Assembly: GCA_000091205.1 (NCBI GenBank)
Contig: AP006493.2
Source of the DNA: Cyanidioschyzon merolae
Taxonomy: Eukaryota
Reading direction: 5' to 3' (one strand)
DNA length: 64,000 nucleotides
Shown here: positions 4,101 through 59,142 of the stretch, piece by piece
Layout: every line of letters starts with the position of its first letter
Numbering within the stretch: position 1 is the stretch's first letter
Made by a program: the position numbers and the translations under genes
Notes under the pieces: model-generated
What the model was told of the DNA's origin: nothing
The model's input: the letters and a program-made list of their open reading frames with translations, nothing else
Databases searched by the model: none

Positions 4101-4220
4101 CTCGGCATGGGTCAGGCCTGCGCATCTATCCTCAGCGCCGCCTCCTCCTTACAGGAATGCATTGTGGTGCTTGAAGGCTTGCTTCATCGCTCGGTACACG
4201 CACGAGACTGATGCGGAAGG

Positions 4221-4250
4221 CTCAACTCAACTCAGCTCAACTCAACTCAA
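4221..4250. repeat. (CTCAA)n pentanucleotide microsatellite: 6 units, one CTCAG variant.
   Basis: Direct reading: ctcaactcaactcagctcaactcaactcaa. Confidence 0.9.
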
Positions 4251-33004: not shown

Positions 33005-33634
33005 GGTAGCCAGTCACTGCACCAAACACTTTCGGAGAGATTTTATAAAACTGGTGATTTTACCGAGCTGTACTGAATGCGCACTGTCAGAGAAGCGAAA
33101 CGTTTGCTGTTCTTTGTGGGATAAACAAATACCTTCCCATAGACGCCTCCTAGTCTTTTTTGACCGGTCGCCTGCTACTAGTCTCAGTTTCGCCCTGTGC
33201 ATTTCGATCCTGAGAGGCTGCCCCTTAAAGTTTGCTCGTCTTCAGCACCGCAAATCTCCTGTTATTGATAGCAGCATGGGAGTCCCGGTTCACGAACTCC
33301 GCGTATGCAGCGCTGCTGGTGGACCTCACCAAAACAAGGATTCCTCGAACTCGCGCGTTCTGTGCCACTAAAGTCTCACCATCGCCCCGTTGGCAAACAT
33401 CACTTTCCTTCTGTCTACTTTCTTTTTCGTCTTCTTCTTGCTCACTTGCTCTTCATCGCTCGATGGTTTGCGAGAGGCAAATTTATTTCGTTTTTCCGAC
33501 AGAAGGCGACATCGGGGCTCCAGGATTTTCGACTCCCATGTTCATAACTTTCCCTTGGATTTCCTATTTCTTCAAATCACCACACCAGTTTATGCCCGCC
33601 AGGTGAGGACCTTCACAGAGCAAGAAGGACTTGT

Positions 33635-34575
33635 GAAAGAGATAATGTGCCCACTGGGACACCATGTGCTTAACGCTTCAGCGATTCGCCCGGTGGAACG
33701 ATCATTACATTTCAGGATACAAAACACTCTTTCGGTTAAGTTGAACCATGGAGCGTACGGAGTAATGAAAGGCGGCTCTACGGCGAGAGACCTGGCAAAG
33801 GCTCGAACGGAAGGGCAATTCTCAAATGCACGGTGTCCAATAGGAGGAGGTCTCCAGATTTCAGGGGAAAAGTCTTCAATGATCCGACGAAGTGGTCGAA
33901 GCTGCTGTTTGAGCCTTCTTTAGACGCCAGAACCGAGGCCACCAATAGTATCTACTGCAGCTAGAACATATGGTGATGTTCTCTTTCGCCTCGAGATCGA
34001 TTGTATATACAACGGGCTCCATGCTCCGCGAATACTCACACATGCTCCGATCGTTTCATTCGAATGACATCTCATCGACTGAAAGAATAAACCGACGTAC
34101 CTGTGCTTCATACGGCTAGTGGCGTTCCGGAAAAGCTATTGCTGCGATTTCGGTGGAGGATGGCCGTGCGTGATCTAGGGCGCTGTTTTTGCGACTACAT
34201 CGCAATGTCTGCAGGACCACGCGAGCTCCCCGCTCAGACACAGAGACGCTTGCGGTGGCTACTATTACGCCTTTTTTCTTCCCGTATGAGGGTCAACGGA
34301 TCGTATTCCATCATTGACTGGAAGCAGTCTTGGAGAATAACGGTTTTGTCGCGGAACGCATGTACTTGTTTCTTTCTTTCATTGTTCCTCAACGATCTGA
34401 GTACTGTTGTATGACTGAACTGAGGGGCGAACGCAGTCCTCCTTGCATTGTTAAGCAAAAAATATTCTCTACAAGCAATTTGTGTACAATCTATATGGTA
34501 CGCTGCGTAGAGATTTGCATGTCCTGCTCTACAGTGCGAAGAAGCATTCTATTTTACGCAGCGGGAGTAAAGCAA
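33635..34575. repeat. Copy 1 of a 941 bp perfect direct repeat. It is an internal segment of the TnpB/Fanzor-like element family.
   Basis: Identical over its whole length, as far as I can read, to 37415-38355 (offset 3780 bp). Divergence begins before 33635 and after 34575. A roughly 80%-identical inverted fragment of the same sequence lies at 54065-54185. Confidence 0.85.
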
Positions 34576-35370
34576 GACTTGGTTTCAATAGTATAATACA
34601 AGGCGTCGATTAACGCGGTTCCTGTTACAGCAGTAGGCCATCATAGCGGGTAGACGCCCAAATACGCCTAGATTTCGTCATGGGCTCCAATTCCCAGCAC
34701 TTGCCCGTTTGAAAAGCGACGCGATCATTGTATAACTCGGACGCTGACGACCGAATGAAACGATCTCGTTCGGAAAGCGGCCTGACACAGCATCCAAATA
34801 AGCTCATCTGCCGAATTTCACCAGCGCCATCTGATCCGGTCTGTTTACACTTGCGTATAGATGCCCGGTGCGGCCTGGCGCCGAACTTGACTGCGGCTCT
34901 TCGTCGAACTTGCGACTTCCAGCGGCAGAATTTGGATAGAAGCATCAATGCTATCGAGGTTCGTTTTTTCAGCGTATTAGGATCTGTTAATATACATGCA
35001 ATAATCAGCAATCTAAAAACTGTAGTGACCCCGTACGCGCAGCTTGGATTATGTTATTTCTCTCTCTTTCGATGACATGGATGAAAGGCGGCGAATGCAT
35101 GTCTCCATGTGCTTGTAATGTGAAACGGTTCATACCTGGATAACCGCCGGCATATGATCATGAAATTCTCAAGACTTTACGGCGCGTTGAAGTCAAATTC
35201 TCATGCCGGAAGTCTGTCGAATCGACGCCTTCTACAATTTAACCATTTATGAAGCAAGTACCCATCGTTAAATTCCGATTCGTGACCGGATTCCGCAATA
35301 TTCCATGGAAACCGATGGTCGCCGCAGATGAACTCGGAGAGGGAGCATGGTGGCCTTCCAGGACGCTCTA

Positions 35371-36774: not shown

Positions 36775-36849
36775 CTCGAAGAAGTATACTTGGCTTCAAG
36801 AAAAGAGGATCTTTTGCCGTGATGCCGAAAAATAAGTGTCCCGCAACTT

Positions 36850-38355
36850 CTATAACCAAGTTGTGGAACAAACTGGTCCAAACACGAAATGGTTTCCCTC
36901 CATCCAACGAAAATAAGAAAACAAAGTTGGCTCAGCGAATCGAAAGCCCCTTTCGCAAACACGGAGTAGATTTATATTCACGCGCAGACGCCTCGCAGCC
37001 TTTATCGACCAGCCACGTGCTGTCGGCCTCAGAGTCTCCTTCTGGACTTCCACCCGGAGAGGCTGCCCCATAAAGTTCGCTCGCGTCAGCGCAGCGGGTC
37101 TCGCCTTCTGCACCGCACATCTGCTGATATTGATGGCAGCATTAAAGTCTTGGTACGCGAACTCCATGCATTTATTACTTCTGGATGAACTCACCAATGC
37201 AAGCAGCTCTCGAACTAGTGCCCTCAGTGCCACTTGCTGCTGTGTCAGTTCTTCATGTTTTTCAATCGCGGATGCGCCCCGCTCGCTCTTCTCCACCTCG
37301 ACTATCTGCATTGTGCATCCCGGCACATCCCTAAGATGTTTTATTTTTGAACATGTACGCATTTCTTCTTGCCTTTAGATGACAACTTTCCCGGAGGCAG
37401 AAGAGCTCGTGGAAGAAAGAGATAATGTGCCCACTGGGACACCATGTGCTTAACGCTTCAGCGATTCGCCCGGTGGAACGATCATTACATTTCAGGATAC
37501 AAAACACTCTTTCGGTTAAGTTGAACCATGGAGCGTACGGAGTAATGAAAGGCGGCTCTACGGCGAGAGACCTGGCAAAGGCTCGAACGGAAGGGCAATT
37601 CTCAAATGCACGGTGTCCAATAGGAGGAGGTCTCCAGATTTCAGGGGAAAAGTCTTCAATGATCCGACGAAGTGGTCGAAGCTGCTGTTTGAGCCTTCTT
37701 TAGACGCCAGAACCGAGGCCACCAATAGTATCTACTGCAGCTAGAACATATGGTGATGTTCTCTTTCGCCTCGAGATCGATTGTATATACAACGGGCTCC
37801 ATGCTCCGCGAATACTCACACATGCTCCGATCGTTTCATTCGAATGACATCTCATCGACTGAAAGAATAAACCGACGTACCTGTGCTTCATACGGCTAGT
37901 GGCGTTCCGGAAAAGCTATTGCTGCGATTTCGGTGGAGGATGGCCGTGCGTGATCTAGGGCGCTGTTTTTGCGACTACATCGCAATGTCTGCAGGACCAC
38001 GCGAGCTCCCCGCTCAGACACAGAGACGCTTGCGGTGGCTACTATTACGCCTTTTTTCTTCCCGTATGAGGGTCAACGGATCGTATTCCATCATTGACTG
38101 GAAGCAGTCTTGGAGAATAACGGTTTTGTCGCGGAACGCATGTACTTGTTTCTTTCTTTCATTGTTCCTCAACGATCTGAGTACTGTTGTATGACTGAAC
38201 TGAGGGGCGAACGCAGTCCTCCTTGCATTGTTAAGCAAAAAATATTCTCTACAAGCAATTTGTGTACAATCTATATGGTACGCTGCGTAGAGATTTGCAT
38301 GTCCTGCTCTACAGTGCGAAGAAGCATTCTATTTTACGCAGCGGGAGTAAAGCAA
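36850..38355 (-). pseudogene. Partial TnpB/Fanzor-like element (copy delta). The C-terminal fragment, including the RuvC-III-like motif, is contiguous with direct-repeat copy 2. Reading is broken across frames.
   Basis: Minus-strand ORF 36850-37362 reads ...KIKHLRDVPGCTMQIVEVEKSERGASAIEKHEELTQQQ...NKCMEFAYQDFNAAINISRCAVQKARPAALTRANFMGQPLRVEV. It aligns with the copies at 42.6 kb, 54.5 kb and 57 kb. Homology to copy gamma continues upstream into 37415-37500 in another frame (ILKCNDRSTGRIAEAL versus IMKCNDRSIGRIARPF at 54400). Confidence 0.55.
37415..38355. repeat. Copy 2 of the 941 bp perfect direct repeat.
   Basis: See 33635-34575. The shared sequence begins gaaagagataatgtgcccactggg. Confidence 0.85.
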
Positions 38356-39093
38356 AATCGAGTTGAACGACTATCTGACGCCTACGCAAAGCGATTCCGC
38401 GTACCGTGTATCTGCAAAGTAGCACTTCTTAATGGTAGAGCCGCAATTGAGAACGTTCGGAGTGTTTTCCTGGTTCTGCTGGATGGATTTTTGGTAAACT
38501 ATATTTAATCTTCTAGTGGGAGGATGATTGCGCGGGCAAAACCATATTTTCCAGGATGAGTCGTACTGAAAGAAGCACAGTATTCACTATGCCGGGCGAG
38601 GTAGGTGCTAGTTTGGGTTTGACCTCACGCGATGCGCACAACGGCTGCGGAATACGCACAACTCGATACTGATCGTCGAGTCGGCAAGACTGCAACATGC
38701 TCATGGCTCAGGTCATCCGAAGAGAAACCTCACCATAAATACCGTGTTCATACTTCACATCGTACATAAGAAAAATTACTTTTCAGGCCCTCTACAATAA
38801 ATAAAATTGGATTCCACTTATCGCGTTTATTGAGAGATTTACCGGACGCTTCCGTCGCAAAAAAAAGAAGAGACATAAGAAACTTGACCCACTGTGTAGA
38901 AGGAGAGCAAACACCGCAAAGCCCTGCGAAAACCTCATGCGGTGATGTCGCGCCCTGCTGCGATCGTAACGAAGGCCATTCGTCGCCACGCGCAACGCAG
39001 GGCAAGAGACGGCTTGCGTACGGTGCAGAACACCGAACTGGCTGTGAAGAGGATCTCTTCTTTGTCAGTACTAAAAGGCGTCGCTTTCTGGGA

Positions 39094-40485: not shown

Positions 40486-40940
40486 TTCCTAATGGGCAGA
40501 AGCAAGCGTCGGCTCCCACAAAGTTCAGTAGAACGGCGGGGGTCAGTTGCCACGAACGCTTTACGTGCGGCATCAAGATGATATTTCATTGCGAATGGAG
40601 TTCGTCGACGTCAGTTGCATCCGCAGAATGCTTCTTTGTTTCGGATATGTCCGCGGCCTGTGCCCGCAACGAATGTTCCTAGAAGTACATTTCACGGCGC
40701 CTTGAACATGTAGTTAAGATAAGCGCTCGAAATCGTCCCTGATTCGGCAGTGACTGTCCCTAGAGCTGGATCCTATGGTTTCTTGACCCTGTGGCTACAA
40801 TATGCGCTCGACACCGTCGAAGATCAGGGAATCGCTCTAGTGTCGGCCTGATTTCCACCAAGTGCACTCTGCACTTTTTGAAATTTTTGGAGGACCCATT
40901 AAAAAAATAAATGCAAGGATTCCTAAGAATAGAGATACAG

Positions 40941-42443: not shown

Positions 42444-42610
42444 AGGTGCCCAACTCTAGAGAGCGTGCTCTCACCCAGGATTCGGGGTTCCAAATGTTTT
42501 CGATTAAAGAACTGAGCGCGTATACGACTGAAATTTAAGAACCGGCCACTCCTGGAAACAAACGCCTTTCGAAAGTCGAACGACGCCAACCGTGTTCAGT
42601 TGTGGCGATC

Positions 42611-44960
42611 TACCTGCCCCAGACAAGATGTTTCCAATTGACGTGCAGACGCCTCCCCGTCTTTTTGGATCGGCCACGCACTACTACTTCCAACTGTTTC
42701 TCATATAGTTCCACTTTGACAGGTTGTCCCATAAAATTCTCTCTTGTCGACTCTGGAGGCCTTCTTTCCATCACCGCACATTTCCTTATATTGATAGCGG
42801 CGTTAAAGTCTCGTTCACAAACTAAATACGTTTCTTGCCATCATTGGCTGTACTTACTAGTGCAAGTGGCCCACGAACTTTCTCCATCCTTTCCATTTGC
42901 TCTTCCGTCAGTGCACCGTTCTTTGCTATTTCCTCAGGGCTCCGCTGACACTTTCCCATCTCAACCCTCTGAAGTGTACAACCCAGCTCGTGGCGTATAT
43001 ACGTTGTTTGAAATTCATCTACAGGTACTGTAACAAAACGCCGTGCACGCTCCTTGTTCACTCTCGTCTTTGGAGCTGGAGTAGTCCCTTTATGGGTCTT
43101 CCAGCGCCCTGCTCCGTATGCTAATACGAGCCTCTGACTTTCATCCTCTTTGAGAGCACTCAACTCATCGAAAAAATTCGCGAACGCCCGCTGCTTCCCA
43201 TTGTATAGATTCATTCGCAAACGAGCCCACCGGCGCTCGGTATACTCCTCCCACAGCGCATCCCAATGCGCAATGCGAACTTCCATGAATTTCCGAAAAG
43301 CGTCAAAGTCCGCTCCTCGGCTCGTCACCTCGCTCAAAGCTTCTAGGTGATCCTTCATTCCTGAATTCCAGCTCTCGATTTTCTTCCTCGCATTCATTAT
43401 ACCCGATTCTCGATAGTATCTCGCTATCGAGAACCTCAGTAGACGCATGTCTTCCCGACGTAAACTACCGTCAGTACCATCTTCCGCACACTTCGGTGCT
43501 GCGATGGTGATGATATTTGTGTTCCCAGCGTCCGCGCCAACGACAAAGTAGTTATGCTGCACTTTCTGTGTCGCTGGATCCGCCTCCTTCTTTTCTTCAT
43601 CCTTCACCGCGTCAAAGACAAGGTCGTTATCCTGCACCTTTTGCATCGCAGGATCCGCTTTTTTTTTTTCTTTTCTTCATGTTTCTTCACGGGCGCAGCC
43701 GAGGGCGGAACTGGACGATCTTTCTTCAACCGCTGATAGTGTACATTCAAGGCTACTCCATCGGTTTCGATCAACCCAGTGAATACCTTTTGTTTGCTGA
43801 CTTTGAGACGTTTGAAAGCGAAGATATTCTTCCAGTACGTCTCACGGGCTTCACCGGAGAACTCCTCCCTGCTAACATTGAACTCTGGACTGATCTCCCT
43901 AATGATGCCATGAAGGATTCTGGAGTCGATACTCACGAAATGTGACTTGAGGTTGCACAACAGAACGCCATTGAAGCGCTACCCCATTAGGACAGCCTCC
44001 CGTCTCTCCCACTCTTCATTTGTCTCTACACTCAGCTTCATTTCCGCCTTGCGTTCGAGCTCTCGGTCCAGAAACACGACATAGCGCAGAATGAGGCGAT
44101 AGTATCTTTCCTTATCTTTTTTCAACTCTGATATCTTTTCTGTTGGATTCGCCAGCCCCAAGACTGTACGGTGCTCTTGTCTAGCCGCACGGATTATAGA
44201 AGCTTCATTCGTGCTCCTGTGTCACTTTTTCTTGTCGACAAATTCGATCTCATCTTCATACTTTCGATCGTTCTTGATGCCACTGATAATCGCCCATTTT
44301 CCTTTGCGAGAGATGCCCGAGTAGAGTGCTAGCACGGCGTGTATCATGAAAAGTTCGAGGTTCACGATCGGTTGGTTCTTCAGATTCGTGAGGTACTTAA
44401 TCGCCCCATAGTCGTAAACATCCGAGTCACCCCTGTATCGGGTACCCTCGAAGCTATAAAAGGCATGTTTTCGTGCAGGGCGTGCACCAGCTCATTTTCC
44501 CTTCGCGCTTCCTCTGTGCCAAGCATCAGGTGACGAATAAAGGTCTTATCGAAAAACTCGTCCGGAATCTCGACCGTTTCCATGTGCGTCACTTCGCGAT
44601 ACACCTCACTCGCCAAATGCATCAGTCCTGACGACGCCTTGACAATACTCTTGGAGTATGACGCAACACGTCTTTCGATAGCGTCTCGCAACTTGTCCCT
44701 GTAGGGATCCTTGATATGTCCAAGAAGAAAGGTTTTCACCACCATCTCGTCGCACAGTTGTCATTCTTGCCGCTTACGACGTAGGGCCTCTCCATTTCGG
44801 TTCTACTTCTCTTCCTTTTCTTCTGGACCTGGTACTGTTTTTTGTTTTCTTCTGGCAGCCAGCGACACTGAGCCTCTAGGATCGTGGACTTGCTCTTCCA
44901 TAACTTTTCTTTTTTTAATTTTTTGAAAAAGAACGCTCTTTTACAGCTTGCGTCACACAC
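42611..44960 (-). mobile_element. Most complete copy (alpha) of a eukaryotic TnpB-like (Fanzor-like, IS200/IS605 OrfB-superfamily) RNA-guided-nuclease element, about 2.3 kb. It is a pseudogene with one in-frame stop and at least two frameshifts.
   Basis: Minus-strand pieces: 44736-44960, 44380-44745, 43979-44161 (ends at an in-frame TAG at 43979-43981), 43604-43960 and 42822-43646. A RuvC-I-like motif reads [15 protein letters not shown], with an earlier echo [14 protein letters not shown] Fanzor-like block reads LVLAYGAGRWKTHKGTTPAPKTRVN...FVTVPVDEFQTTYIRHELGC. After a further frameshift, the RuvC-III motif ERDFNAAINIRKC lies at 42788-42814. The tail ends at the stop at about 42611. Confidence 0.55.
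43556..43692. repeat. Roughly 65-75 bp in-gene tandem duplication inside element copy alpha. It contains an 11-nt T homopolymer (43659-43669) that causes a 1-nt frameshift.
   Basis: Unit A reads ctgcactttctgtgtcgctggatccgcctccttcttttcttcatccttcac. Unit B reads ctgcaccttttgcatcgcaggatccgcttttttttttt cttttcttcatgtttcttcac. Adding one A to the minus-strand A11 run joins ORF 43604-43960 to ORF 42822-43646 in frame. Confidence 0.7.
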
Positions 44961-45618
44961 CGCGAAAATTCACTTGAATGAACTTGCTTGAGGGCTGAAA
45001 CACAATTGAAATGAAAAAGTATTCTTTGCTACAACTTCAATGCAAATGCAACTTGTGTGTTGGAACAACAAGAAAAAGACTGGTTAGGATCGAGTTTCCC
45101 TTCAACGACACCGTGCATGTCGCGTCTCGTGACTGCCTTCTCCCCCAGATGCGCGTATCGAGCGCACCGTATAGGAAGAAAGGCAGAGACTCACGGTTCA
45201 CTATCAACGTTGTAACAGTATCTTCCTCCTCTATGATAAACGTTAAAAGGAGGGCAAATGTTTCCTTATTTTGGAAAGTTTACCATATAGGCGAAAGTTC
45301 CCGCGAGCTGTACGAGTCTGCTGGTGAATGCGGTGTGCGCCGCGCAGTGTACAAAATTCCATGCGCTTCCATGCGCTCAGCTGTGCTAGTAAGTAGAAAA
45401 GTCGTCAGTTACAGAGCACGTGTGTATGCCACTTGCAGATCCTGAAAAGGACAACTTCTTCACATTTTACGTGGGAGATGCAGGTTTAGATCTACTCCAA
45501 GTTATAGATTCTTCAAACCACAGGGTGACGCACCCATTCAATCACAGTCGTGGCTGCGAAAATGCAGCTTAATTGGATGCGATTTCATTGTTGTTCTAGA
45601 GGACTGTAGGCGCGGTGC

Positions 45619-46956: not shown

Positions 46957-47061
46957 CTTTTGTAAGGTTAATATCGTCGATTCAGTGATACGATCGCCTC
47001 GCCCGTCGCTCCCATCTGCAAACCTTGCGCGGTTCTACCTTCCACCGCGTTACGGTTACGG
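46957..47061. promoter_or_regulatory. 105 bp divergent spacer, a presumptive bidirectional promoter, between the radical SAM (CofH-like) gene and lycopene beta-cyclase.
   Basis: Head-to-head ATGs at 46956 (-) and 47062 (+). Confidence 0.35.
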
Positions 47062-50128: not shown

Positions 50129-50581
50129 ATGCTACTGAAAGCCGCTCGACTGTGGCATTGCGTCGTTTTTGGAGCCAGCGTCCAGCGTTCGTCACGAAGA
50201 GTAGGTCCAATAGCGGAATACTCACCTCGTCCTCGCTGTCCTGAGGACTGGCCTATAGCCCAGTTCAGCAGGGAAGCGGAGGAACTTTTGCAGCAGCTTG
50301 GAGATCAAGTCTATGACACCTTTCAGGGTAGGACGGACGTCGACGTTGAGTTTTCTCAAGGCGTTCTGACACTTAGGTTTCCGAACGGAACTTTTGTCTT
50401 GAATACGCAGACTCCGAATCGACAAATATGGCTATCGTCTCCTCTAAGCGGACCAGCTAGGTACTATTATGATCTTGATACAGGAAAGTGGCGCAACTCT
50501 AGAGACGATCATATGCTTGTGGATCGCCTTCAGAAAGATCTCGCCGTGTTTACGGGCTGCAACATTCAGTTAAATCTTTAA
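50129..50581 (+). CDS. FXN: Frataxin (mitochondrial iron-sulfur cluster assembly protein) with an N-terminal presequence.
   Basis: The presequence is MLLKAARLWHCVVFGASVQRSSRR. The mature domain reads EELLQQLGDQVYDTF...DVEFSQGVLTLRFPNGTFVLNTQTPNRQIWLSSPLSGPARYYYD...KWRNSRDDHMLVDRLQKDL, matching the conserved frataxin fold sequence. The track ORF began at a TTG at 50027; the first ATG is at 50129. Confidence 0.8.
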   Translation: MLLKAARLWHCVVFGASVQRSSRRVGPIAEYSPRPRCPEDWPIAQFSREAEELLQQLGDQVYDTFQGRTDVDVEFSQGVLTLRFPNGTFVLNTQTPNRQIWLSSPLSGPARYYYDLDTGKWRNSRDDHMLVDRLQKDLAVFTGCNIQLNL

Positions 50582-51394
50582 GCAGCGTAGCAAAAAAAGA
50601 GCATCAAGTTGCACAGTGGTTTAGAGCGTCAGCGCTCCTACAAGGCGTGTGCAGTCGCCGGTCACATTACTCTGTCTTGAATTTTTTTCAGTCTCTGGTT
50701 CGTGCACTGTATCAACAGGAGTTTTACTGAAGCAAGTGAACAGCGGTAAATATATTTGGAAAGAGCTTCTCTCTGCTTGGCGATCAGTTAAGTTTTTCTG
50801 TACAGCACGCACCTAATCCAGAGACCGTTTCCCCGTAGAGCAATGGGGTGCAGGACATCTGCCCTTACGAGCGGGCAAGGGTATGGCGCAAGTGCTTCCA
50901 TAACGTTGTTGTTAAAGCATCCATTTTGCAGAGCGCATTGTCTGAAATAGATCCGATTTTTTTCCTTCTTGTAGCTATGCGCAGAGCAGGTAATTCTGGA
51001 ACACCTGTGCCAGCGCTCTTCTCCCGTATTTGTTTGTTATTATCACAGGCATTCAACCAACTTTAAGTATCCCTTGGATCGAAGAACCGTCGCAGAAAGA
51101 TCTACTGCTGTCAATGCTCGCATGCGAGAAGCGACTTTACTTTTACATGTCAGTTCCTCTGCGATCAGATGATAGATGAACCATCTAGATCGTAGTCCCT
51201 TTGCTTAACTTCATAAATTCGAAAGGAACTAGTCGGCCTCTGTCTTCATGGATGTCACCCTCCCCAATTAGTTTATTCATCTTCAGACATTGCCTAGGTA
51301 ATACAAGCAAAGAAGTCACAGGATGCGATTTTCCGTACCGTTGTTGCGAACGGTGATGAACAGACAGGGGTGGAGAATGAAAAATGTATGCTTC

Positions 51395-51540
51395 TATGGA
51401 AGAGCGTCACGCGTTGTTCTATGCAATATCCACTTCGTTCCGAAACGCGAGCGCTTATCCATTTGCGTGATCGCCTACACATTGCGACGCGCCCAAGTCC
51501 GTGATCCACTTTATCCTGCGCGTGATCACTTCGTGACTTC
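51395..51540. repeat. Diverged dispersed repeat, about 70% identity, with an inverted partner at about 59155-59295.
   Basis: 51450 reads ...gcgcttatccatttgcgtgatcgcctacacattgcgacgcg... The reverse complement of 59200-59260 reads ...gcggctcttcatttgcatgatcgcctacatatcgcgaaacgg... Conceptual peptides LSICVIAYTLRRAQVRDPLYPARDHF and LFICMIAYISRNGQVRSSLHPAREDF align. Confidence 0.6.
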
Positions 51541-52680
51541 TACTTTCCAAATTCGAATATCCAGCTCATTGTCAATGTTGGATCGCGTCAATCAACGGCG
51601 GTCAAAGTGTACGCAGCTGAGAATGGAGTTCTGCTGTTACTTGTGCCAGCATGTGCTCCCCCGCTCGATGCAGTTGAAGGCATCTTCTCTGTTGCCGAAC
51701 GCAGATTTGCGCTCACAGTTAAGCAGAGGAGTCGTTCGCGTCTGCGACAACTTTTGTCGACAAATCACTCTCTACATTTAGCCGCCTTGAACTGCTGTAC
51801 TAGTTGTCTACTCAAGGGAGACAGGTACCGGAAAGCGTGTCCGTCCATAGATACTTTGCGACGGAGATTGCGACGGATATGTGCTTGAGGAAGTTCAAAT
51901 ATATACCTTGAAAAAAGAGGAGGGTTTCAATCGAAATTTGCACACAAAGCATCTTAATCCCAAGTACGGATATGGAGACGGAATACATTGCCCAAATCCA
52001 GGCTATGCCGCCAACAAGAAGAGAAGCCGATGAAGGAAACGTTCTTATTGCGCGAATATGAAGCACGCAAGCGACTTCGTGAAGAGCATATGCCGAGCGC
52101 GTTCATGAATTCTCTTTTACTAGGAGCAAATTGAGAAAAGTTCACAGGCACCATCCCTCCGATGAAAAACAAATCTGCATATATTCTGTGGGAACCAGGT
52201 ATGAGTCGCGAAACGATACACATTAGCATGCATTCAAATTATATGAACAGAGAGATTCTATGGTGCACGTGATTCTAGAGTTGAACCCCGCCATGCCCCT
52301 TGCAATACCCAGGAAATCAAGATGACAGGCTCAAAGACCGTACAGGAACGCAGATGAAGCTGATCAACTTTGCTGGACTCGGTATTATCGTGAATTGAGC
52401 ACTGCGAAGACCAAGAGACCTACCAGCAATAAAAATGACGGCTTCAGGATCCATTTCGACGATCTGAGCAACTCATGGAGGAGAGCGGATTGCCTCGACC
52501 GTTTCATTCAGAAAGTTAGTGAGCGAGCAAATGGCTTCTGCGGACGATCTTGCACAGGCGTTTGAAACACCGCGCTATCTTCGCCCGCGGTGTCAGCATT
52601 ACGAAGGCCAGAAGCGCGCTTACGCCAACTTCTTCGATATTTTGAAAGTAAATGATCACGATGTCGCTTGGTATCATGTT

Positions 52681-53174
52681 AGCCGATGGCGCTGAGCATG
52701 CGCGAACACTCCAATGCTGCTGTCCTGCTCCTTCGACTGGAGCTTACAACTAGTGCGAGAACTGATTCTTCATCATGACCATCGATTTGCTCAGGACGAT
52801 GCACACGCATCCTGAGCACAGGTGCACGCTGAAACAGGCAGAGAAAAAACGCGTGAGATGGAGGCGGATGCATGAGCTTGTGCAGGGTAAGCTTTCCGAG
52901 CATCAGATGTCGATGCAGTCGAGGTTTCGAGGCTCGCTACAGTGTGCTTTCACCACCAACCAAGCGTGCAAGCAGTTTCCGCGTCGAGACTTGAACGCCA
53001 CGATAAACATCTGTAGATTCCTAGAAGTGCGAGCGCGTCCAGCAGATTTGTGTCGAGTGAATGTGTGATGTAGTTGTGTTGTACTCAATGAGCGCATTAC
53101 ATGGAAAGCGGAAGACTTTGGATAATATAGTTTGGTGACTAGGAGAGATTCATTGCATGCACGCCTGAAGCAAC
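52681..53174 (+). repeat. Copy A of a 494 bp inverted repeat (about 99.8% identical to 56835-57328). It contains the 3'-terminal fragment of a TnpB/Fanzor-like gene (copy epsilon).
   Basis: ORF 52775-53068 reads ...HPEHRCTLKQAEKKRVRWRRMHELVQGKLSEHQMSMQS...LQCAFTTNQACKQFPRRDLNATINICRFLEVRARPADLCRVNV. One mismatch to the partner was seen, in the conceptual peptides (SRFRGS versus SWFRGS). The boundaries were located by base-by-base comparison of the reverse complement. Confidence 0.85.
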
Positions 53175-53999
53175 CCAATATTCTTCGTTGCGCTGATCAG
53201 ATTAGCAAGGCCGGAGCAATGTGTACGTATATCAGGAAAGATTTTGCGAGGCGATTGTTGAACGATAACTGCGTTCAATTATTCGACATTACTGAGTGTA
53301 GGGCTAACCCACCGAGCATTTTTCTTTCCATGCGCTACTCTGGTTACTGAACCCTGTCCTTTGCTGCTCAAGCAAAGCTCTTTGCTCTATGGTGTAGCAG
53401 ATAACTTCCGAGTACGCTCCTCCAATCTCTAAATTTTCGGGTAACGATCCTACCGTCTTGAGCTTTTTGTTCACTTAGCGCCAAATTCTTTGAAAAAACG
53501 ACTCTATCCGCGGATTCTTCAAGGTTTCTCTTTAATGTGGCCAATAGAGTTTTCCAACTCAAGTTTGTTTCACTCTCGCTGCAGTGGATGCCAGGAGATG
53601 CAACTCTCTATGCAGCGCAACGTATAGATTGTAGACGAATTGCTTCTAGGGTACATTTTTTACTGAACGGCGGAAGGAAGACAGCGTACATCCATCAGTT
53701 CAGTCACACCGCAGTACTCAGATTACAGATGATTAATGAAAGAAGGAAAAATACAGGTATATGCCATCCGCACCAAAAACCGATATTCTCACAGATTGCT
53801 TGTGGCCAACGGTAGGAAACGACCCGTTGATCACCTTAATGAGAGCAAAAGCGACACCAGAAGCCGCGACACCCGTCTCTGTTTCTGAACAGCTTGTTTA
53901 CGTGGTCCTGAAAGCACTGGGATACAGCCGCACAAGAATGTTCAGTTTCACGCATTTTCATCTCCCACCGAAATCGCAATGACAGCGTTCCTAGAACGT

Positions 54000-54914
54000 C
54001 GTGATCGGTATGAAGCACAGGGAGGTCGGTTGCTTTTTTCGATAGATGAGAATTCCATCGGACGAACCGGTCGGAGCGAACATGCGTATTAACAGAGCAT
54101 GGAGCCCGTTGTATATACAATCGATCTCAAAGAGAACGACGATATAATTTGTTCTAGGCGCAGTGGATACATTTGGTGGCTCTAGTTTTAACTCCCCGAG
54201 AAGGCGCATAAAATCCCTCCCACTTTTTTAAATTATTGAAGACTTTTCCTCGACGCTAGGCGACGTCCTTCTGTTGGCCAACGTAGCGTTTCACCGGTTT
54301 CCTTGTGTTCGAGTTTTGCTGATTCTGTCGGGGTAGAGATGCTTCTAATTCCTCCCTACTCTCAGTAGCAGAACCTCATTGAAGAAATGTTTTTTATCAT
54401 GAAATGTAATGATCGCTCCATTGGACGAATCGCTAGACCATTCAGCACCGTAGCGCCGGGGCATACTTCGTCCTTGTTCCGCAAGTGATTCTCGCTCCAG
54501 GAAGAGATTTAGCTGAGGTCATGAACAAGTGCGTTCATTTTCAAGAAATTGCACCTAAGGAATGAGCTGCGGAGCTCATTTCAAAAGGTCGAGAGGGGGA
54601 GAAGCCAGCAGGGCGCTTCGGAGATAGGAAAGCACAGGGAGCTGACAGGGCAGCAAATGGCAATGAGGGCAAGGGATATAGGAATATTTGCATTGTCGCG
54701 TTCCAGCAACGGCACTGCAAGCATTGAGTTCGTGAACTTAGGCTCCAAAGCCGCCATCAATATCAGACAGTGTGAGGTATTGAAAACGAGACCCGCGGAG
54801 CTGAGGCGAACTTACTTTGTGGGGCGGCCTCTCAGAGAAGAAGTGTACAAGTTGAAGCTCCAGCCGATAGCATTCGGCCGGGCAAAACACTGGAACGCGT
54901 CCGTGCGTGGGTAA
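54000..54914 (+). pseudogene. Partial TnpB/Fanzor-like element copy gamma (C-terminal half, frameshifted).
   Basis: ORF 54549-54914 reads ...GASEIGKHRELTGQQMAMRAR...GSKAAINIRQCEVLKTRPAELRRTYFVGRPLREEV. The upstream 54390-54480 region is homologous to the reverse complement of direct-repeat copy 2, and 54065-54185 is about 80% identical to the reverse complement of 33930-34040. Confidence 0.55.
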
Positions 54915-56834
54915 TATTGAACCCCTACGGGTTGTGGCGCATTACTCATTTAACCTACAGCAAACTGAGCCCGTGGATAGACGTTTACTCACGGCCCGTT
55001 TGGGGTTTCAACAGCCGCAACTGGCTACGTCTCTGGTTTGTAGATGTTCATCGTCGCGATTCCTCAAAGGGGACGTTTGTTCGGGAAGCGTTTTAATCCT
55101 GCGTACGCGATTGGCTCTAGCAAACTGCACAAATCACAAGGAGCAGGCTGCTGCGTAGCGGCTCGCAAAATGCTTGGAGTGACCAACCGCACGCCGCTGC
55201 TGGCGCTGGAAACGAGCGAGGACACCCTCCCGGGGAAAGCCTTCCAAGCACCGGAAAGAGAGGCTCATGAACCTGTAAATTCGAACGCTGTGGCAGACGA
55301 AGTTCCCATAACTAGCTCTGAGCTCGAGCTACCAGCAGATTCGGACGCTTTAGAAGAGAAGCAGCTACTTCTTCTGCTCAAGAAACAGCTCGGGGCAGAT
55401 TTCGAACGAATTTTTGACTCAAAAAATCCATTCATAGGGGAGGTTTTCTGAGCGAGCCTGCTCAACCTGTCAGGACGGGATTTATGTCAACAATTGCATC
55501 CCAGCGGTGCTCGAGTACGTTCAAAGCCAGGTAATCCGTGCACGTTGTGGAGCTGGTGCGCATTTTTTGGGTATCATGTTGGTCTTTCTACCCAGGGAGA
55601 CAGCATTAATCTACCAATCAACAAATTCTTACTAGCACATGGATCCAATGCGTGTGACTCGTGATTCAGCACTGACCGAGGCGTTTCAAACGGATCGACA
55701 TGCTCAAAACCGGCGCGAAGAATCGTGAGAGCTTCTATTTGGACCGTCGACCGTAGCTGAAGAGTATGCGTGGAGTCAAGCTTCTGCTGAGGCTACATAT
55801 CCCTGCGGCGCGTTAGGCCGTCGGGTAGAAGTACTCTACGAGCTAATTGCCTCGTGGAGTACGCGTTTCGCACGCGTCCCTAGCGCACAGTCTTGCCTTC
55901 AGACACGAGTGTCGGGACGGAGTCGGGCTGTACACTGGAAACCTGATGACGTTCACAGCACGCCCACGCGTTGTTGCAGCCTCGGCAACGTGCCCCGATA
56001 CCGGCTATTGTCGCTAATTTCGAATCCGAGCACTTGGGCACGTCGGACACCAGGGATCCGGTTCAAATTGGCGGCTACATTTTTACCAGCGAGCTTTTTT
56101 GGGTATTTCCAATATGTCCAGCAATTCTGATTACATGGCATTCACCATCTGTGTCTAGGCATCGAAGTGGTACTGCATATATATGTCCTTCGAAAATGCG
56201 CATCTCTGTAAACTCTAGCGTTAAGCAGTTCAATGTTTTGTGGTGGGTACATGCTTATTGCCATTCCAGTGCCCACGACTGCTTTTGATCGCATGTTTCA
56301 CGCATGTATGAGTACTAAAAGCGAACTCATTGGGTTCGCGTCTGTCTGGATGCCCGACGAAAAAGCCTGGCTCTTAAGGCGAGTACTGTGAAAAGGAGGG
56401 GATAGAATGGCTCATATTTCCTGAGCTGCTCACCATGTCTAAAACGATCCTATAGACTGCATCCTCAGGTCTATGCATGAGCGTTGATGATCTGAATTCT
56501 TTCGGCATCTGTTCGAAATGGGCATCGCACTGAATATATCCGCAGGGGAACAATCTGAAATAATTCGCGATCTCGTTGGCAACGGTCCACGATCTAGAAG
56601 ATATCCCTCTCGCGCGCTTCCCCAAATGACGCTTCCAGACGGCGCAAGTTCCTGGAGGCGACAGACAAACGCATCATCACCAGGAGACAGGTAACGAAAC
56701 CCCTCTTGATATGCATAGAAATTGCGAAAACTTTAACGCCATTACCGTTCATCAGCTGCAAATGAAAATCGTTCCCTGTGTCTATCTAGGGCGCTCTAAT
56801 ATTTCTGGATGAGTAATCCGTACCGCACCAGTGC

Positions 56835-58950
56835 GTTGCTTCAGGCGTGCATGCAATGAATCTCTCCTAGTCACCAAACTATATTATCCAAAGTCTTCCG
56901 CTTTCCATGTAATGCGCTCATTGAGTACAACACAACTACATCACACATTCACTCGACACAAATCTGCTGGACGCGCTCGCACTTCTAGGAATCTACAGAT
57001 GTTTATCGTGGCGTTCAAGTCTCGACGCGGAAACTGCTTGCACGCTTGGTTGGTGGTGAAAGCACACTGTAGCGAGCCTCGAAACCACGACTGCATCGAC
57101 ATCTGATGCTCGGAAAGCTTACCCTGCACAAGCTCATGCATCCGCCTCCATCTCACGCGTTTTTTCTCTGCCTGTTTCAGCGTGCACCTGTGCTCAGGAT
57201 GCGTGTGCATCGTCCTGAGCAAATCGATGGTCATGATGAAGAATCAGTTCTCGCACTAGTTGTAAGCTCCAGTCGAAGGAGCAGGACAGCAGCATTGGAG
57301 TGTTCGCGCATGCTCAGCGCCATCGGCTGCTGCTGTAGGATGCGACTTATCTGTCAGTCGCTTTCCGACTCATGAGATAGACTGGCGAACGCATGCGTCC
57401 CGCCTCCGTACAGCCTGGCCCGCAGGCGGTCCTAACGCGGTCTCGAGTGTTCGTACCGTACTTCGCCCGCATGAGTGATCTAGATACCAATGTACGCGCG
57501 TCATGAGGCGTCGAGGGGTGCTCCCTCTGTTCGATACGGTACTCAGGGCGTCTAGAAGGATCCTCACGCCGCATGCCGCTCGTCAATATGCCTCCTGCGG
57601 TCCATCATGCCCAACTCTCGATGACGCCCAGCCCCCGAACTGCTGAGCAGCCCGATCCGCTTTCCGCTCGGTTCTTTTGGTCGTTTCTTCTCATTCTCAG
57701 GTGCGGCGACCGCGAGGAGGCCCTTCAACGCGGGATCCACACGCATCCCAAAGTGCGCCTCCTGTTCCACTCTATACGAGGGACAATGAGTCTCGCGTGC
57801 CCGACTCAGGCGTAGCCATCGGAAAATCTATGCAGATTGATATTCTGTCGGCCCCCATGGTTCCTCTAAGTTTCTCTCCATTTGCTCCGTGTGGATGAGA
57901 ATTCTTGGACGCGCTCGCCAGACGCTCTTCACAAAGTTGCCTGTGTGCTTCCTATTTGTGCGCAGACACCAGCAGCAGCTCACTGAAAACGCCATACACT
58001 ACCGAGCTGGTTTGCGGTGATATGGTGGCCATGATCTGACTGTTGGGTACCGCATCGAACAGACGCTCAAGGTAACTGGTGCGCTCGGACTCGCGACGGG
58101 ATTCGGCGCTGCTCTGGCGCGCTTCGTTCAGGGACAGGTGCTGGCGTAAGGTACACGGAACGAAGGCATCGCGCTTCCACCATTATTCGGACGCAATGTC
58201 CGTGGGTGCGAATCTGAGAGCTACGCAGTGAGCTCGGACGATCTAGACTCACTATCGCTCTGTTCATGACGTCTCCTACGAACTTGCAGCCAACTCGATG
58301 TCCTCCGACATTGGCGCCCCGTTGGCCTCCATCAACACCCCAAGAAAGCCTGCCACCAATCGTCACTTTTGCGGTCCAGCGAGCGGCTGCCAGATCGCCC
58401 CCGGGATGCGTCTCTTGAAGCGCTCGACGTTGGCCGGCAAGCTGGTTCCGTTTTTGCTTCGCGGTTCGTTTGATGCTTTTCTGTACCAGCGCTGCAGATG
58501 TCCCGATCTTCCACGTCGTGCAGCTACTCGTCAAGGTATTCTGCGAAGCGGGTGAGCAAATCTCTGCTCCTGCAATCAGGCCGCATTCCAGCTCCGGTCC
58601 CGATTATCAGTTGCTTTGCCGTGCATAGGTTCGATCGGAATTTCCAGAGGAATCAGGACAGACGGGAGCCCCGCGACCGAAAGTCGTGCGAGTAGTTGTC
58701 TGAGGGGCTGCGTCAAGCCAAGGCACGCAAGATGAGTCTTGCCCGAAACAAGCTTCGCTTTCCGAATGCCGTCCAGCATCTCGCTTATTGGGGAATACTC
58801 TCCGTTGACGTGTTTCAGTAGGGTGGCCTCGACAATGATTTCAGAGTTTGCTGTCCGCTCGCGAAGATTTTTGGCCGTGTACCTACCCGTTCTTGTTGTG
58901 GAAGGATGTTCCTCTTCTTCGTCGGATGCGCGTTCCGCCTTCTCCATTTC
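56835..58950 (-). mobile_element. Near-full-length but heavily disrupted TnpB/Fanzor-like element copy beta. Its 3'-terminal 494 bp (56835-57328) is inverted-repeat copy B.
   Basis: Minus-strand fragments in N-to-C order. First, 58576-58947 (...LLKHVNGEYSPISEMLDGIRK, aligned with [18 protein letters not shown] of copy alpha). Second, 58067-58534 (GRLSWGVDGGQRGANV, RuvC-I-like). Third, 57370-57567 (RGSTPRRLMTRV, aligned with KGTTPAPKTRV). Last, 56941-57234 (RRDLNATINI). Confidence 0.5.
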
Positions 58951-59142
58951 CTGGCGGCGTGGTATCGATGCGGTGGCCAGTATTCATACCCGTTGTACTC
59001 TTTGAGGTTCATACGCTCCGTGTAATTGGTGGCACTGAAGCGTCCCTCTCATAAGTGTTTATCTACCACTCGCCAAATACCTCTTCATCACCGTCTCCAT
59101 CGTGAGCACGCCCGCGCAGCCGAGAGAGCTTCTCCGATCCCG

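What the first reader, a model, noticed from the sequence alone, without database searches (positions are those of the whole stretch)
33600..59000. At least five copies of a TnpB/Fanzor-like (RNA-guided nuclease, OMEGA-type) element family in 64 kb of an otherwise compact, intron-free algal locus
Five loci are involved: 36850-38355(-), 42611-44960(-), 52681-53174(+), 54000-54914(+) and 56835-58950(-). They share an aligned block of roughly 100 residues ending in a RuvC-III-like motif.
- The motif variants are ERDFNAAINIRKC, QDFNAAINISRC, SKAAINIRQC and RRDLNATINICRF.
- The aligned block runs G-C-T-[LM]-Q ... L-T-[EQ]-[EQ]-Q ... D-F-N-A-A-I-N-I ... N-F-M-G-Q-P.
- The longest copy also has a RuvC-I-like G-x-D-x-G segment and the Fanzor-style block VLAYGAGRW...TPAPKTRV...VTVPVDEFQTT ahead of the zinc-finger region.

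In a eukaryotic nuclear context (Pol I A190, COP1, Rad23 and frataxin on the same contig) this points to Fanzor-type elements rather than bacterial IS605. Copies range from 100% identical to about 40-50% amino-acid identity, which suggests an old family with recent activity or duplication. All copies I can read are pseudogenised.
Basis: partly seen in the sequence, partly recalled or inferred. Interest (0 to 1): 0.85.

Follow-up and report, generated by a model that had tools for sequence, protein, structure and literature searches.

The report
Decayed Fanzor1 transposon copies, red alga

Summary
The five named loci and all quoted motifs are present, and a profile scan of all six frames finds three more copies, making eight in 64 kb.

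The Fanzor interpretation also holds:
- Five host proteins are exact matches to C. merolae 10D nuclear genes.
- A 60-sequence family profile hits the solved Fanzor1 structures at E = 5.5e-27, 7e-23 and 8e-17.
- An AlphaFold model of an intact relative superposes on SpuFz (TM 0.62/0.70).
- The family keeps the Fanzor-type rearranged RuvC triad.

Bao & Jurka (2013) already described this family as "CMe-1A": about 150 copies, about 3 kb, no terminal inverted repeats.

All eight copies here are pseudogenes or fragments. The three that could be checked are fixed in environmental strains 99.5–99.9% identical to the window. The 99.6–100% identical stretches are conversion tracts inside old, diverged paralogues, not fresh insertions.

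Details that I did not find in the papers I read:
- two lineages of copies
- a 1.4-kb non-coding derivative family
- exact element ends, with a 3'-terminal hairpin
- loss of the zinc-ribbon cysteines

An omega-RNA fold is possible but lacks covariation support. Verdict: already known, low interest.

The parts
1238..2143 (-). Copy c1. Internally deleted remnant of the older lineage B: N-terminal piece at 1838-2143 plus C-terminal piece at 1428-1728, with a degenerate RuvC-III motif (DLNASINS).
   Evidence: tblastn with P0043; translation; profile scan; 3' limit from the alignment of lineage-B ends
13129..13877 (+). Copy c2. C-terminal ~190-aa remnant of lineage B (YPDMNASANS), with stops, plus ~180 nt of conserved non-coding 3' tail.
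   Evidence: tblastn 40% identity to P0043, E 3e-33; profile E 3.9e-17
33141..34590 (-). Copy c3. Short composite (c4-type) element: Fanzor 3' remnant at 33141-33377 (NRDSHAAINN), a 74-nt piece of the Fanzor element's 5' region at 33483-33556, and ~1 kb of non-coding 5' part that includes the 941-bp tract.
33635..34575 (.). 941-bp tract 100% identical to 37415-38355. Diverged homologous sequence flanks it on both sides, so it is a gene-conversion tract.
36975..38370 (-). Copy c4. A ~1.4-kb non-autonomous composite element: ~1 kb of non-coding 5' part plus ~330 bp of Fanzor 3' end (QDFNAAINISRC ... NFMGQPL). It lacks the last ~75 nt of the full element.
   Evidence: 69% DNA identity to c7 and to metagenome locus L011 over the whole length; no preferred reading frame in the 5' kb; no profile hit there
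42561..45165 (-). Copy c5. Near full-length lineage-A Fanzor1 element (CMe-1A type), 2.6 kb. The ORF runs from about 44835 to 42610 and is broken by 3 frameshifts and 5 in-frame stops.
   Evidence: 82-84% DNA identity end to end with paralogous copies L001, L003-L009 and L012 that lie in different flanks; 69-75% aa identity to P0001-P0042
43512..43541 (-). RuvC-I motif [10 protein letters not shown] of c5. The catalytic Asp is kept.
43002..43124 (-). Rearranged RuvC-II of c5. LAYGAGRW has Gly at the canonical Glu position, and VDEFQTT carries the alternative catalytic Glu 35 residues downstream.
   Evidence: invariant G536 and E569 in the 60-sequence alignment; the rearrangement is described in PMC10530073
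42787..42813 (-). RuvC-III motif RDFNAAINI of c5.
42561..42690 (-). Candidate omega-RNA scaffold region of c5: the last ~130 nt, overlapping the ORF 3' end. It ends in the terminal hairpin GGCGTCGTTCGA-CTT-TCGAAAGGCGTT (42561-42587).
   Evidence: Sharp, shared 3' end in 11 copies. 91% of cells pair versus 37-65% in slid controls, but covariation is not significant
45106..45124 (-). 5' subterminal hairpin of c5 (CGACA...TGTCG). Paralogues show compensatory variants: GCGAC/GTCGC and ACGAC/GTCGT.
   Evidence: read by eye from the alignment of 5' ends; not tested statistically
52048..53302 (+). Copy c6. C-terminal half of a lineage-B element (RRDLNATINICRF). The alternative Glu is lost (IDLLRT).
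52681..53177 (.). 497-bp tract 99.6% identical, in inverted orientation, to 56832-57328. It is embedded in c6 and c8, which are only ~65-70% alike beyond it, so it is a gene-conversion tract.
53552..54942 (+). Copy c7. Second c4-type composite element (SKAAINIRQC).
56708..58947 (-). Copy c8. Full-length but heavily decayed lineage-B element: 24-35% aa identity to P0043 over residues 46-660, with many stops and frameshifts.

Best explanation
The region holds eight relics of the Fanzor1 transposon family of Cyanidioschyzon merolae, published as CMe-1A.

What an intact element looks like. It is 2.6-2.8 kb in the copies aligned here and carries one ORF of about 680-750 aa. The ORF encodes a Fanzor1 nuclease, which is a TnpB/Cas12-type RuvC enzyme. 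Its catalytic Asp (RuvC-I), relocated Glu (in the DEFRTS motif) and Asp (the RD of RuvC-III) are conserved. There is no transposase gene and there are no terminal inverted repeats. The ends are sharply defined, with a hairpin at the very 3' end.

How it most likely works (inferred, not shown). By analogy with characterised Fanzor1 and TnpB systems, the 3' end of the ORF plus the short 3' tail would be transcribed as an omega RNA. Its guide would continue into the flanking DNA, and the ribonucleoprotein would cut matching DNA. This would favour retention or spread of an element that some other enzyme mobilises in trans.

State of the copies in this window. None of this machinery is functional. 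One near full-length copy (c5) has 3 frameshifts and 5 stops. One full-length copy (c8) is decayed almost beyond recognition and has lost the catalytic Glu. Three copies are truncated or internally deleted. Three belong to a 1.4-kb non-coding derivative family that keeps only ~330 bp of the Fanzor 3' end.

The near-identical stretches come from gene conversion between old paralogues, not from recent transposition.
For: - Host identity: exact matches to C. merolae 10D proteins.
- Eight loci and nothing else hit the family profile; tblastn map.
- Fanzor1 homology: profile versus PDB gives PpFz 5.5e-27, SpuFz 7.3e-23, GtFz 7.9e-17 and 1e-9 with the small profile. The AF2 model (pLDDT 80.4, pTM 0.72) matches SpuFz at TM 0.62/0.70, E 3.7e-16, ahead of Cas12f and TnpB.
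- Catalytic columns D398, G536, E569 and D636 are invariant in 60 sequences.
- Element ends are shared by copies in different flanks, and there are no terminal inverted repeats.
- Disabling mutations are documented.
- The derivative family is confirmed by a third member, L011, and its 5' kb is non-coding.
- The conversion tracts lie inside diverged paralogues.
- c3, c4 and c5 are present without indels in strains 99.5-99.9% identical to the window.
- Published description of the family: PMC3627910.
- Fanzor biochemistry and the rearranged Glu: PMC10530073.
Against: - No RNA evidence. The proposed omega-RNA fold has no significant covariation: 132 of 500 shuffles reach the observed score, and RNAalifold gives a positive covariation term. 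Rfam has no match.
- Nuclease activity of this clade is untested, and it lacks the zinc-ribbon cysteines that define the family motif.
- The mobilising enzyme, the target site and any target-site duplication are unknown. No empty site was found.
- The frame-corrected window protein alone hits neither Pfam nor PDB, so the assignment rests on profiles built from relatives.
Confidence: 0.9

Rival explanations
1. Recently active elements: the 99.6-100% identical stretches are new insertions of a still-mobile Fanzor transposon.
For: A 941-bp pair at 100% identity and a 497-bp pair at 99.6% identity. Bao & Jurka report that some genomic copies keep intact ORFs. P0001 is a near-intact 752-aa ORF in a closely related environmental genome.
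Against: The identical tracts do not coincide with element ends. They sit inside copies whose remaining homologous parts are only ~65-70% alike on both sides. The tracts carry no intact ORF. c3, c4 and c5 are at the same positions, with no indels, in more than 10 environmental contigs. Copies at other loci differ by ~17-20%.
Confidence: 0.05
2. Prokaryotic contamination, or a bacterial IS200/IS605 TnpB element, rather than a eukaryotic Fanzor.
For: No terminal inverted repeats, hairpins near both ends and no detectable target-site duplication resemble IS200/IS605 architecture. There is a weak Pfam TNB-domain hit.
Against: The copies lie between exact C. merolae nuclear genes on a finished chromosome. 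The best sequence and structure matches are eukaryotic Fanzor1 proteins, and TnpB matches only at E 4.6e-3. The RuvC-II Glu is relocated as in Fanzors. There is no TnpA-like ORF: the 2.6-kb element is filled by the single ORF.
Confidence: 0.01
3. A repeated host protein domain or a domesticated gene family unrelated to transposons.
For: The DxNAAxNI block recurs in several ORFs of 90-170 aa. One source annotates relatives only as DUF8286.
Against: All window copies are interrupted by stops and frameshifts. The consecutive accession numbers of the matched host genes suggest that no reference protein gene lies at c3-c5. Copies elsewhere have sharp common ends in unrelated flanks, as mobile elements do. 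The fold is a complete Fanzor1.
Confidence: 0.02
4. The identical tracts are assembly artefacts (a collapsed or duplicated repeat) rather than biology.
For: In metagenome strain L026 both 941-bp copies carry the same 6 differences from the window and are identical to each other. A de Bruijn-graph assembler would produce this by traversing one repeat node twice.
Against: From my own knowledge, the window comes from the finished C. merolae 10D chromosome, which is Sanger-based. The tract boundaries are the same in all independent assemblies. The flanks are distinct and syntenic.
Confidence: 0.05

Closest known systems
Fanzor1 family CMe-1A of Cyanidioschyzon merolae (Bao & Jurka 2013, Mob DNA 4:12, PMC3627910)
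   Same: Same organism. Same protein type (Fanzor1). Multi-copy, with copies ~80% identical to each other or to the consensus. About 3 kb long. No terminal inverted repeats, no recognisable target-site duplications and no transposase. Most copies are decayed and a few are intact.
   Different: Nothing essential: this is that family. Beyond the text I read, I see a second and much more diverged lineage (c1, c2, c6, c8); a 1.4-kb composite non-coding derivative (c3, c4, c7, L011); exact 5' and 3' ends with a 3'-terminal hairpin; and conversion tracts. I could not compare with the Repbase consensus sequences (CMe-1A, TE-N2_CMe), which are not available to me.
Structurally and biochemically characterised Fanzor1 nucleases: SpuFz1 (8GKH), PpFz1 (9CF0), GtFz1 (9CER)
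   Same: Whole-protein fold (TM 0.62/0.70 to SpuFz). RuvC-I Asp, relocated RuvC-II Glu in the D-E-[FY]-[RK]-T-S motif, and RuvC-III R-D-x-N.
   Different: Only 12-16% sequence identity. SpuFz and PpFz have a C4 zinc ribbon (CPRC...C..C, CPKC...C..C), whereas the clade holding the C. merolae copies has 0-2 cysteines and no CxxC there. RNA guide and activity are untested for this clade.
Bacterial and archaeal TnpB of IS200/IS605 and IS607 (OMEGA systems), and Cas12f
   Same: RuvC fold and TNB domain: Foldseek hits to AsCas12f at 7e-5 and to TnpB 8H1J at 4.6e-3. Transposon-borne. The guide RNA is expected from the element's 3' end. Hairpins near the ends and no terminal inverted repeats.
   Different: The host is eukaryotic and nuclear. 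The protein is about twice as long. The catalytic Glu is relocated. There is no TnpA partner. The zinc-ribbon cysteines are lost.
Helitron2 elements carrying Fanzor1 (Chlamydomonas; PMC3627910, PMC10530073)
   Same: Non-autonomous carriers of Fanzor1 with hairpins near the ends.
   Different: No asymmetric terminal inverted repeats were detected. The 3' end is ...GGCGTT, with the hairpin abutting the end. Bao & Jurka, who defined Helitron2 in the same paper, left CMe-1A unclassified.

Membership tests
Fanzor1 (eukaryotic TnpB homologue) | Significant sequence homology to established Fanzor1 proteins | tested here: met
   A 60-sequence family profile hits PpFz1 at 5.5e-27, SpuFz1 at 7.3e-23 and GtFz1 at 7.9e-17, with no other PDB hit below E = 0.9. 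The window copies match the same profile at up to 5.9e-67.
Fanzor1 (eukaryotic TnpB homologue) | Fanzor/TnpB fold (REC + WED + RuvC + TNB) | tested here: met
   The AF2 model of the intact relative P0043 (pLDDT 80.4, pTM 0.72) has its top 7 Foldseek hits on SpuFz, PpFz and GtFz (E 4e-16 to 9e-15, TM up to 0.70), followed by Cas12f and TnpB. The model is of a relative, not of a window copy.
Fanzor1 (eukaryotic TnpB homologue) | RuvC catalytic triad with the relocated RuvC-II glutamate (Gly/Pro at the canonical site, Glu further downstream) | tested here: met
   D398, G536 (in the AYG motif), E569 (in DEFRTS) and D636 (in RD) are invariant in 60 sequences. c5 keeps all of them (GADAG, LAYGAG, VDEFQTT, RDFNAAINI). 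c6 and c8 have lost the Glu (IDLLRT). Definition taken from PMC10530073.
Fanzor1 (eukaryotic TnpB homologue) | C4 zinc finger between [TS][TS] and RD (the motif D-X-[TS][TS]-X-X-[C4]-X-RD of Bao & Jurka) | tested here: not met
   Window copies and their clade have 0-2 Cys and no CxxC in this segment. Only the 11 most distant of the 60 family members keep a CxxC. This is a lineage-specific loss inside the family, not evidence against homology: 28 of 60 members still match Pfam PF07282.
Fanzor1 (eukaryotic TnpB homologue) | Located in a eukaryotic nuclear genome or a eukaryotic virus | tested here: met
   Flanking ORFs are exact matches to C. merolae 10D nuclear proteins.
Fanzor1 (eukaryotic TnpB homologue) | Associated omega RNA (fRNA) encoded at the 3' end, with the guide continuing past the element end | tested here: inconclusive
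   The last ~130 nt are highly conserved and can form stems (91% of cells paired versus 37-65% in slid controls). Covariation is not above the shuffles. No expression data. No Rfam family matches.
Fanzor1 (eukaryotic TnpB homologue) | RNA-guided DNA cleavage | not testable with these tools
   Needs biochemistry on an intact family member.
CMe-1A element family of C. merolae (Repbase; Bao & Jurka 2013) | C. merolae; ~3 kb; Fanzor1 ORF; many copies ~80% identical; no terminal inverted repeats; no clear target-site duplications | tested here: met
   c5 is 2.6 kb and 80-84% identical to copies at other loci of near-identical environmental genomes. No terminal inverted repeats. Flanks show no common duplication. 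Direct alignment to the Repbase consensus was not possible.
IS200/IS605-type element | TnpA (Y1) transposase in autonomous copies; prokaryotic host | tested here: not met
   The element holds a single ORF, and the host is a eukaryote.
Helitron / Helitron2 | Helitron-type termini (5'-TC...CTRR-3', or asymmetric terminal inverted repeats for Helitron2) and a Rep/helicase gene in autonomous copies | tested here: not met
   The 3' end is ...GGCGTT in 9 of 11 copies. No inverted match of 10 nt or more between the ends is conserved. Rep/helicase was not searched genome-wide.

The most novel reading that the evidence does not exclude
The C. merolae Fanzor1 elements may be a eukaryotic counterpart of IS200/IS605-style hairpin-ended elements. 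They have no terminal inverted repeats and no target-site duplication, a 5' subterminal hairpin and a 3' terminal hairpin. They encode a zinc-ribbon-less Fanzor1. The nuclease, with a 3'-end omega RNA, would maintain the family by break-induced copying between paralogues, and the conversion tracts seen here (941 bp and 497 bp, possibly evolving in concert across strains) would be footprints of that homing. My evidence does not exclude this, but supports it only by circumstance.
Probability: 0.1. Interest if true: 0.55.

Novelty: already known. Interest (0 to 1): 0.2.

Why it matters
It matters little as a discovery. Fanzor1 in C. merolae has been in the literature since 2013, and Fanzors have been known to be RNA-guided nucleases since 2023.

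It does have some value as annotation. The copies do not appear as protein genes among the reference matches I saw, and the finding shows that a sequence-only reader can recognise a very diverged RuvC nuclease.

Three small points may interest specialists:
- C. merolae is a genetically tractable, almost intron-free, thermoacidophilic model. Near-identical environmental genomes hold near-intact copies (P0001), so it could serve to study the natural role of a Fanzor1 that lacks the zinc ribbon.
- The precisely defined ends and hairpins narrow the search for the unknown mobilisation mechanism of this unclassified element.
- The conversion tracts are a clean example of concerted evolution between dead transposon copies in a very compact genome.

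Tried and rejected
- Pfam scans of the raw ORFs and of the frame-corrected 715-aa protein found no TnpB or Fanzor domain. The ORFs gave only a spurious sub-threshold PH_31 hit. phmmer against PDB gave only noise. Only profiles built from relatives worked.
- RNAalifold and pair counting on 11 element 3' ends gave no significant covariation, because the sequences are 86% identical.
- Rfam at gathering threshold over the whole window gave no match.
- The search for terminal inverted repeats between element ends found none that is conserved.
- The search for an empty site, to define the target and any target-site duplication, failed. All retrievable syntenic contigs are 99.5-99.9% identical to the window and contain the same copies.
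- I tested whether the 5' kb of the c4-type element is a very diverged Fanzor ORF. No reading frame is preferred and there is no profile hit, so I rejected this.
- I searched the window for solo copies of the element's 5' ~650 bp (the published TE-N2_CMe relation). Only c5 itself and a 71-74-nt piece inside c3 turned up.
- Literature searches for Fanzor plus Cyanidiophyceae, and for Fanzor1 plus zinc finger/TNB, returned nothing relevant beyond Bao & Jurka 2013 and Jiang et al. 2023.
- I considered and rejected contamination, a host domain family and recent transposition (see the rival explanations).

Full report
**Origin of the window.** Five long ORFs in and around the region are exact, full-length matches to nuclear proteins of Cyanidioschyzon merolae 10D. 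They are the sigma factor BAM80440, pseudouridine synthase 3 BAM80441, CMK047C BAM80443, FO synthase subunit BAM80444 and lycopene beta-cyclase BAM80445. All lie on a record of 852,849 bp. The CMK locus tags place the window on chromosome 11 of this red alga. From my own knowledge, its genome is finished, very compact and almost intron-free. Contamination by prokaryotic DNA is therefore excluded.

**Checking the observation.** Self-comparison confirms a 941-bp direct repeat at 100% identity (33635-34575 = 37415-38355). It also shows an inverted 497-bp pair at 99.6%, with 2 mismatches (52681-53177 / 56832-57328), and a 1.3-kb match at 69% between 37018-38306 and 53592-54872.

tblastn with intact relatives, and hmmsearch of a 60-sequence family profile against all six frames of the whole window, find eight loci and nothing else. 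I name them as follows:
- c1, about 1238-2143(-)
- c2, 13129-13877(+)
- c3, 33141-34590(-)
- c4, 36975-38370(-)
- c5, 42561-45165(-)
- c6, about 52048-53302(+)
- c7, 53552-54942(+)
- c8, 56708-58947(-)

Two of them lie outside the finding's coordinates. Domain E-values range from 5.9e-67 (c5) to about 1e-5, so the similarity is not chance.

**What the protein is.** Direct searches failed. Pfam found no TnpB or Fanzor domain in the raw ORFs or in my frame-corrected 715-aa reconstruction of c5, and phmmer against PDB gave only noise.

A word-seeded search of the large protein collection with the reconstruction returned 51 relatives:
- about 44 from hot-spring metagenomes at 52-75% identity, including a 752-aa near-intact ORF (P0001)
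- an intact 676-aa protein at 38% (P0043)
- six full-length proteins at 26-30%

Their alignment shows the pattern G-x-D-P-G-R, then V-x-A-Y-G, then D-E-F-R-T-S, then R-D-x-N-A-A-x-N-I.

Several lines of evidence then agree:
- A profile of eight sequences hits SpuFz1 (8GKH) at 1e-9.
- An exhaustive HMMER search of 1.84 billion cluster representatives finds 5181 clusters at E <= 1e-3 and 662 at E <= 1e-30. This is a large family.
- A 60-sequence profile hits Parasitella Fanzor1 at 5.5e-27, Spizellomyces Fanzor1 at 7.3e-23 and Guillardia Fanzor1 at 7.9e-17. No other PDB hit falls below E = 0.9.
- 28 of the 60 members match Pfam PF07282 (Cas12f1-like TNB domain), with a best E-value of 9.6e-11.
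- An AlphaFold2 model of P0043 (mean pLDDT 80.4, pTM 0.72) finds SpuFz, PpFz and GtFz as its seven best Foldseek matches (E 4e-16 to 9e-15, TM 0.62/0.70 to SpuFz). Cas12f (7e-5) and TnpB (4.6e-3) follow.

The invariant columns of the 60-sequence alignment are the Asp of DPG, the Gly of AYG, the Glu of DEFRTS and the Asp of RD. This is the 'rearranged' RuvC site reported for Fanzors: the canonical RuvC-II glutamate is replaced by Gly or Pro, and a glutamate further downstream takes over (PMC10530073).

One defining feature is not met. The segment between DEFRTS and RD, which in SpuFz and PpFz holds a C4 zinc ribbon, has 0-2 cysteines and no CxxC in the window copies and in their whole clade. 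Only the 11 most distant of the 60 members keep a CxxC. I read this as a lineage-specific loss within Fanzor1.

**Already published.** Bao & Jurka (2013, PMC3627910) list one Fanzor1 family for C. merolae and describe it as 'CMe-1A'. They report about 150 copies, each ~80% identical to a ~3-kb consensus, with no terminal inverted repeats and no determinable target-site duplications. The superfamily is unclassified, and some copies still encode intact proteins. The 5' 635 bp equals a second repeat, TE-N2_CMe. Jiang et al. (2023) also list rhodophytes among Fanzor hosts. The finding is therefore a correct rediscovery.

**Anatomy of the elements.** I fetched paralogous copies from hot-spring metagenomes. 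Several of these samples also hold contigs 99.5-99.9% identical to the window. These copies therefore most likely represent other loci of C. merolae-like genomes.

c5 aligns to nine such copies at 80-84% over its whole length. Homology stops at the same two points although the flanks differ.
- The 3' end is sharp...CCACTACTGTAC-(5-12 nt)-GGCGTCGTTCGA-CTT-TCGAACGGCGTT, followed by unrelated sequence.
- The last 27 nt can form a 12-bp hairpin. One copy (L001) has CTGCC/GGCAG in place of GCGTC/GGCGT, which keeps the pairing.
- About 45-60 nt from the 5' end there is a short hairpin with variants GCGAC/GTCGC, ACGAC/GTCGT and CGACA/TGTCG. I read this by eye.
- No terminal inverted repeats are conserved, which agrees with the 2013 paper.
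- The ORF stop lies about 50-65 nt before the 3' end, so any omega RNA must overlap the ORF's 3' end, as in characterised Fanzor1 systems.

In the last ~130 nt a 13-bp long-range stem (GCAGTAGTGG... with ...CCACTACTGT), two inner hairpins and the terminal hairpin can be drawn. 91% of cells pair, against 37-65% when the partners are slid. However, covariation is no better than in shuffles (132 of 500 reach the observed score), and RNAalifold's covariation term is unfavourable. The RNA remains a hypothesis. Rfam has nothing in the window.

**Two lineages and a derivative family.** Alignment of the 3' parts separates two lineages:
- c3, c4, c5 and c7, which group with P0001 and end in NFMGQP.
- c1, c2, c6 and c8, which group with P0043. 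Their proteins share roughly 35-47% identity, and they share a conserved non-coding tail that runs to about 300 nt past the RuvC-III motif.

c4, c7, c3 and a metagenome locus (L011 4036-5363) form a separate ~1.4-kb family, 68-69% identical over their full length. It consists of ~330 bp of the Fanzor 3' coding end joined to ~1 kb with no preferred reading frame and no match to the Fanzor profile. It lacks the last ~75 nt of the full element, including the terminal hairpin. c3 also holds a 74-nt piece of the full element's 5' region.

**State of the copies.**
- c5 needs three frame changes and has five in-frame stops, two of them in the N-terminal leader. Its three catalytic residues are still readable.
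- c8 aligns to P0043 over residues 46-660 at 24-35% identity, with many stops.
- c6 and c8 have Leu in place of the catalytic Glu (IDLLRT).
- The rest are fragments. Nothing here can encode an active nuclease.

**Age and the identical tracts.** The 941-bp identical tract lies wholly inside c3 and c4. On its 3' side the two copies are 67% identical (33141-33369 versus 36986-37234). On its 5' side the last ~20 nt of the elements are homologous but diverged.

The 497-bp tract of c6 and c8 is likewise flanked on both sides by homologous sequence of only ~65-70% identity.

Both are therefore gene-conversion tracts between old paralogues, one pair direct and one inverted, and not new insertions.

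In more than ten environmental contigs 99.5-99.9% identical to the window, c3, c4 and c5 are present with no indels. I found no insertion polymorphism and no empty site.

In one strain (L026) both 941-bp copies differ from the reference at the same six positions and are identical to each other. This could be concerted evolution. It could equally be a repeat collapsed by the assembler, so I give it little weight.

**Mechanism.**
- Shown: these are Fanzor1-family elements with defined ends, and in this window they are dead.
- Inferred from established work on TnpB and Fanzor (PMC10530073; SpuFz structure 8GKH): intact members make an RNA-guided RuvC nuclease whose guide RNA comes from the element's 3' end and reads into the flank.
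- Unknown: what moves the element, its target site, and whether the zinc-ribbon-less clade is active.

**Verdict.** Novelty: already known. Interest is low, at about 0.2. The residual value lies in the refined anatomy and in a possible link between Fanzor and conversion between copies.

Noticed in passing
window 33635-34575 and 37415-38355; L026 4420-5360 and 8200-9140: In one environmental strain (99.59% identical to the window) both copies of the 941-bp tract carry the same six substitutions relative to the window and are identical to each other. This suggests concerted evolution by repeated gene conversion. A metagenome assembler that collapses the repeat would give the same picture.
   Followed up: partly
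window 2300-5100 versus 48700-52000 (inverted); also 59160-59730: Patchy, collinear, inverted similarity of 68-72% in five blocks, lying on both sides of the frataxin ORF (50027-50581). Short matches also occur at 59.2-59.7 kb and in L011. It is probably another old dispersed repeat or an ancient inverted duplication, and it is unrelated to Fanzor by profile.
   Followed up: partly
window 14041-14230: A ~190-bp dispersed repeat just downstream of c2. It recurs at 68-76% identity in six metagenome loci. In L003/L005, which appear to be the same locus in two samples, it lies about 100 bp upstream of the 5' end of a Fanzor element. It might relate to the published TE-N2_CMe, but I could not compare them.
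   Followed up: partly
family alignment A2 (relatives of window 42813-43022): The zinc-ribbon cysteines of the TNB domain are absent (0-3 Cys, no CxxC) in 48 of 60 family members, including the whole clade of the C. merolae copies. Eleven distant members keep CxxC...C...C. I do not know whether this loss has been described.
   Followed up: partly
L001 4001-6259 (P0001): A near-intact 752-aa Fanzor1 ORF with all catalytic residues sits in a metagenome sample that also contains a genome 99.6% identical to the window. It ends about 40 codons early (NFIG*) compared with the other copies. It also carries four tandem ~25-aa acidic repeats (..ATQEVEDNDFIVD..), of which c5 has about two.
   Followed up: no
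window 36850-37362(-), 52775-53068(+), 54549-54914(+), 56941-57234(-): The ORFs of 97-170 aa that remain open in the Fanzor remnants were called as genes in JGI metagenome annotations (for example the 170-aa product in L022-L029). They are transposon relics, and annotating them as hypothetical proteins would be misleading.
   Followed up: no
window 1-64000: Eight Fanzor-derived copies in 64 kb compares with about 0.6 expected from the published ~150 copies in a genome of ~16.5 Mb (the genome size is from my own knowledge). Either this part of chromosome 11 is a transposon-rich island, or the published count omits the diverged lineage-B and composite copies.
   Followed up: no
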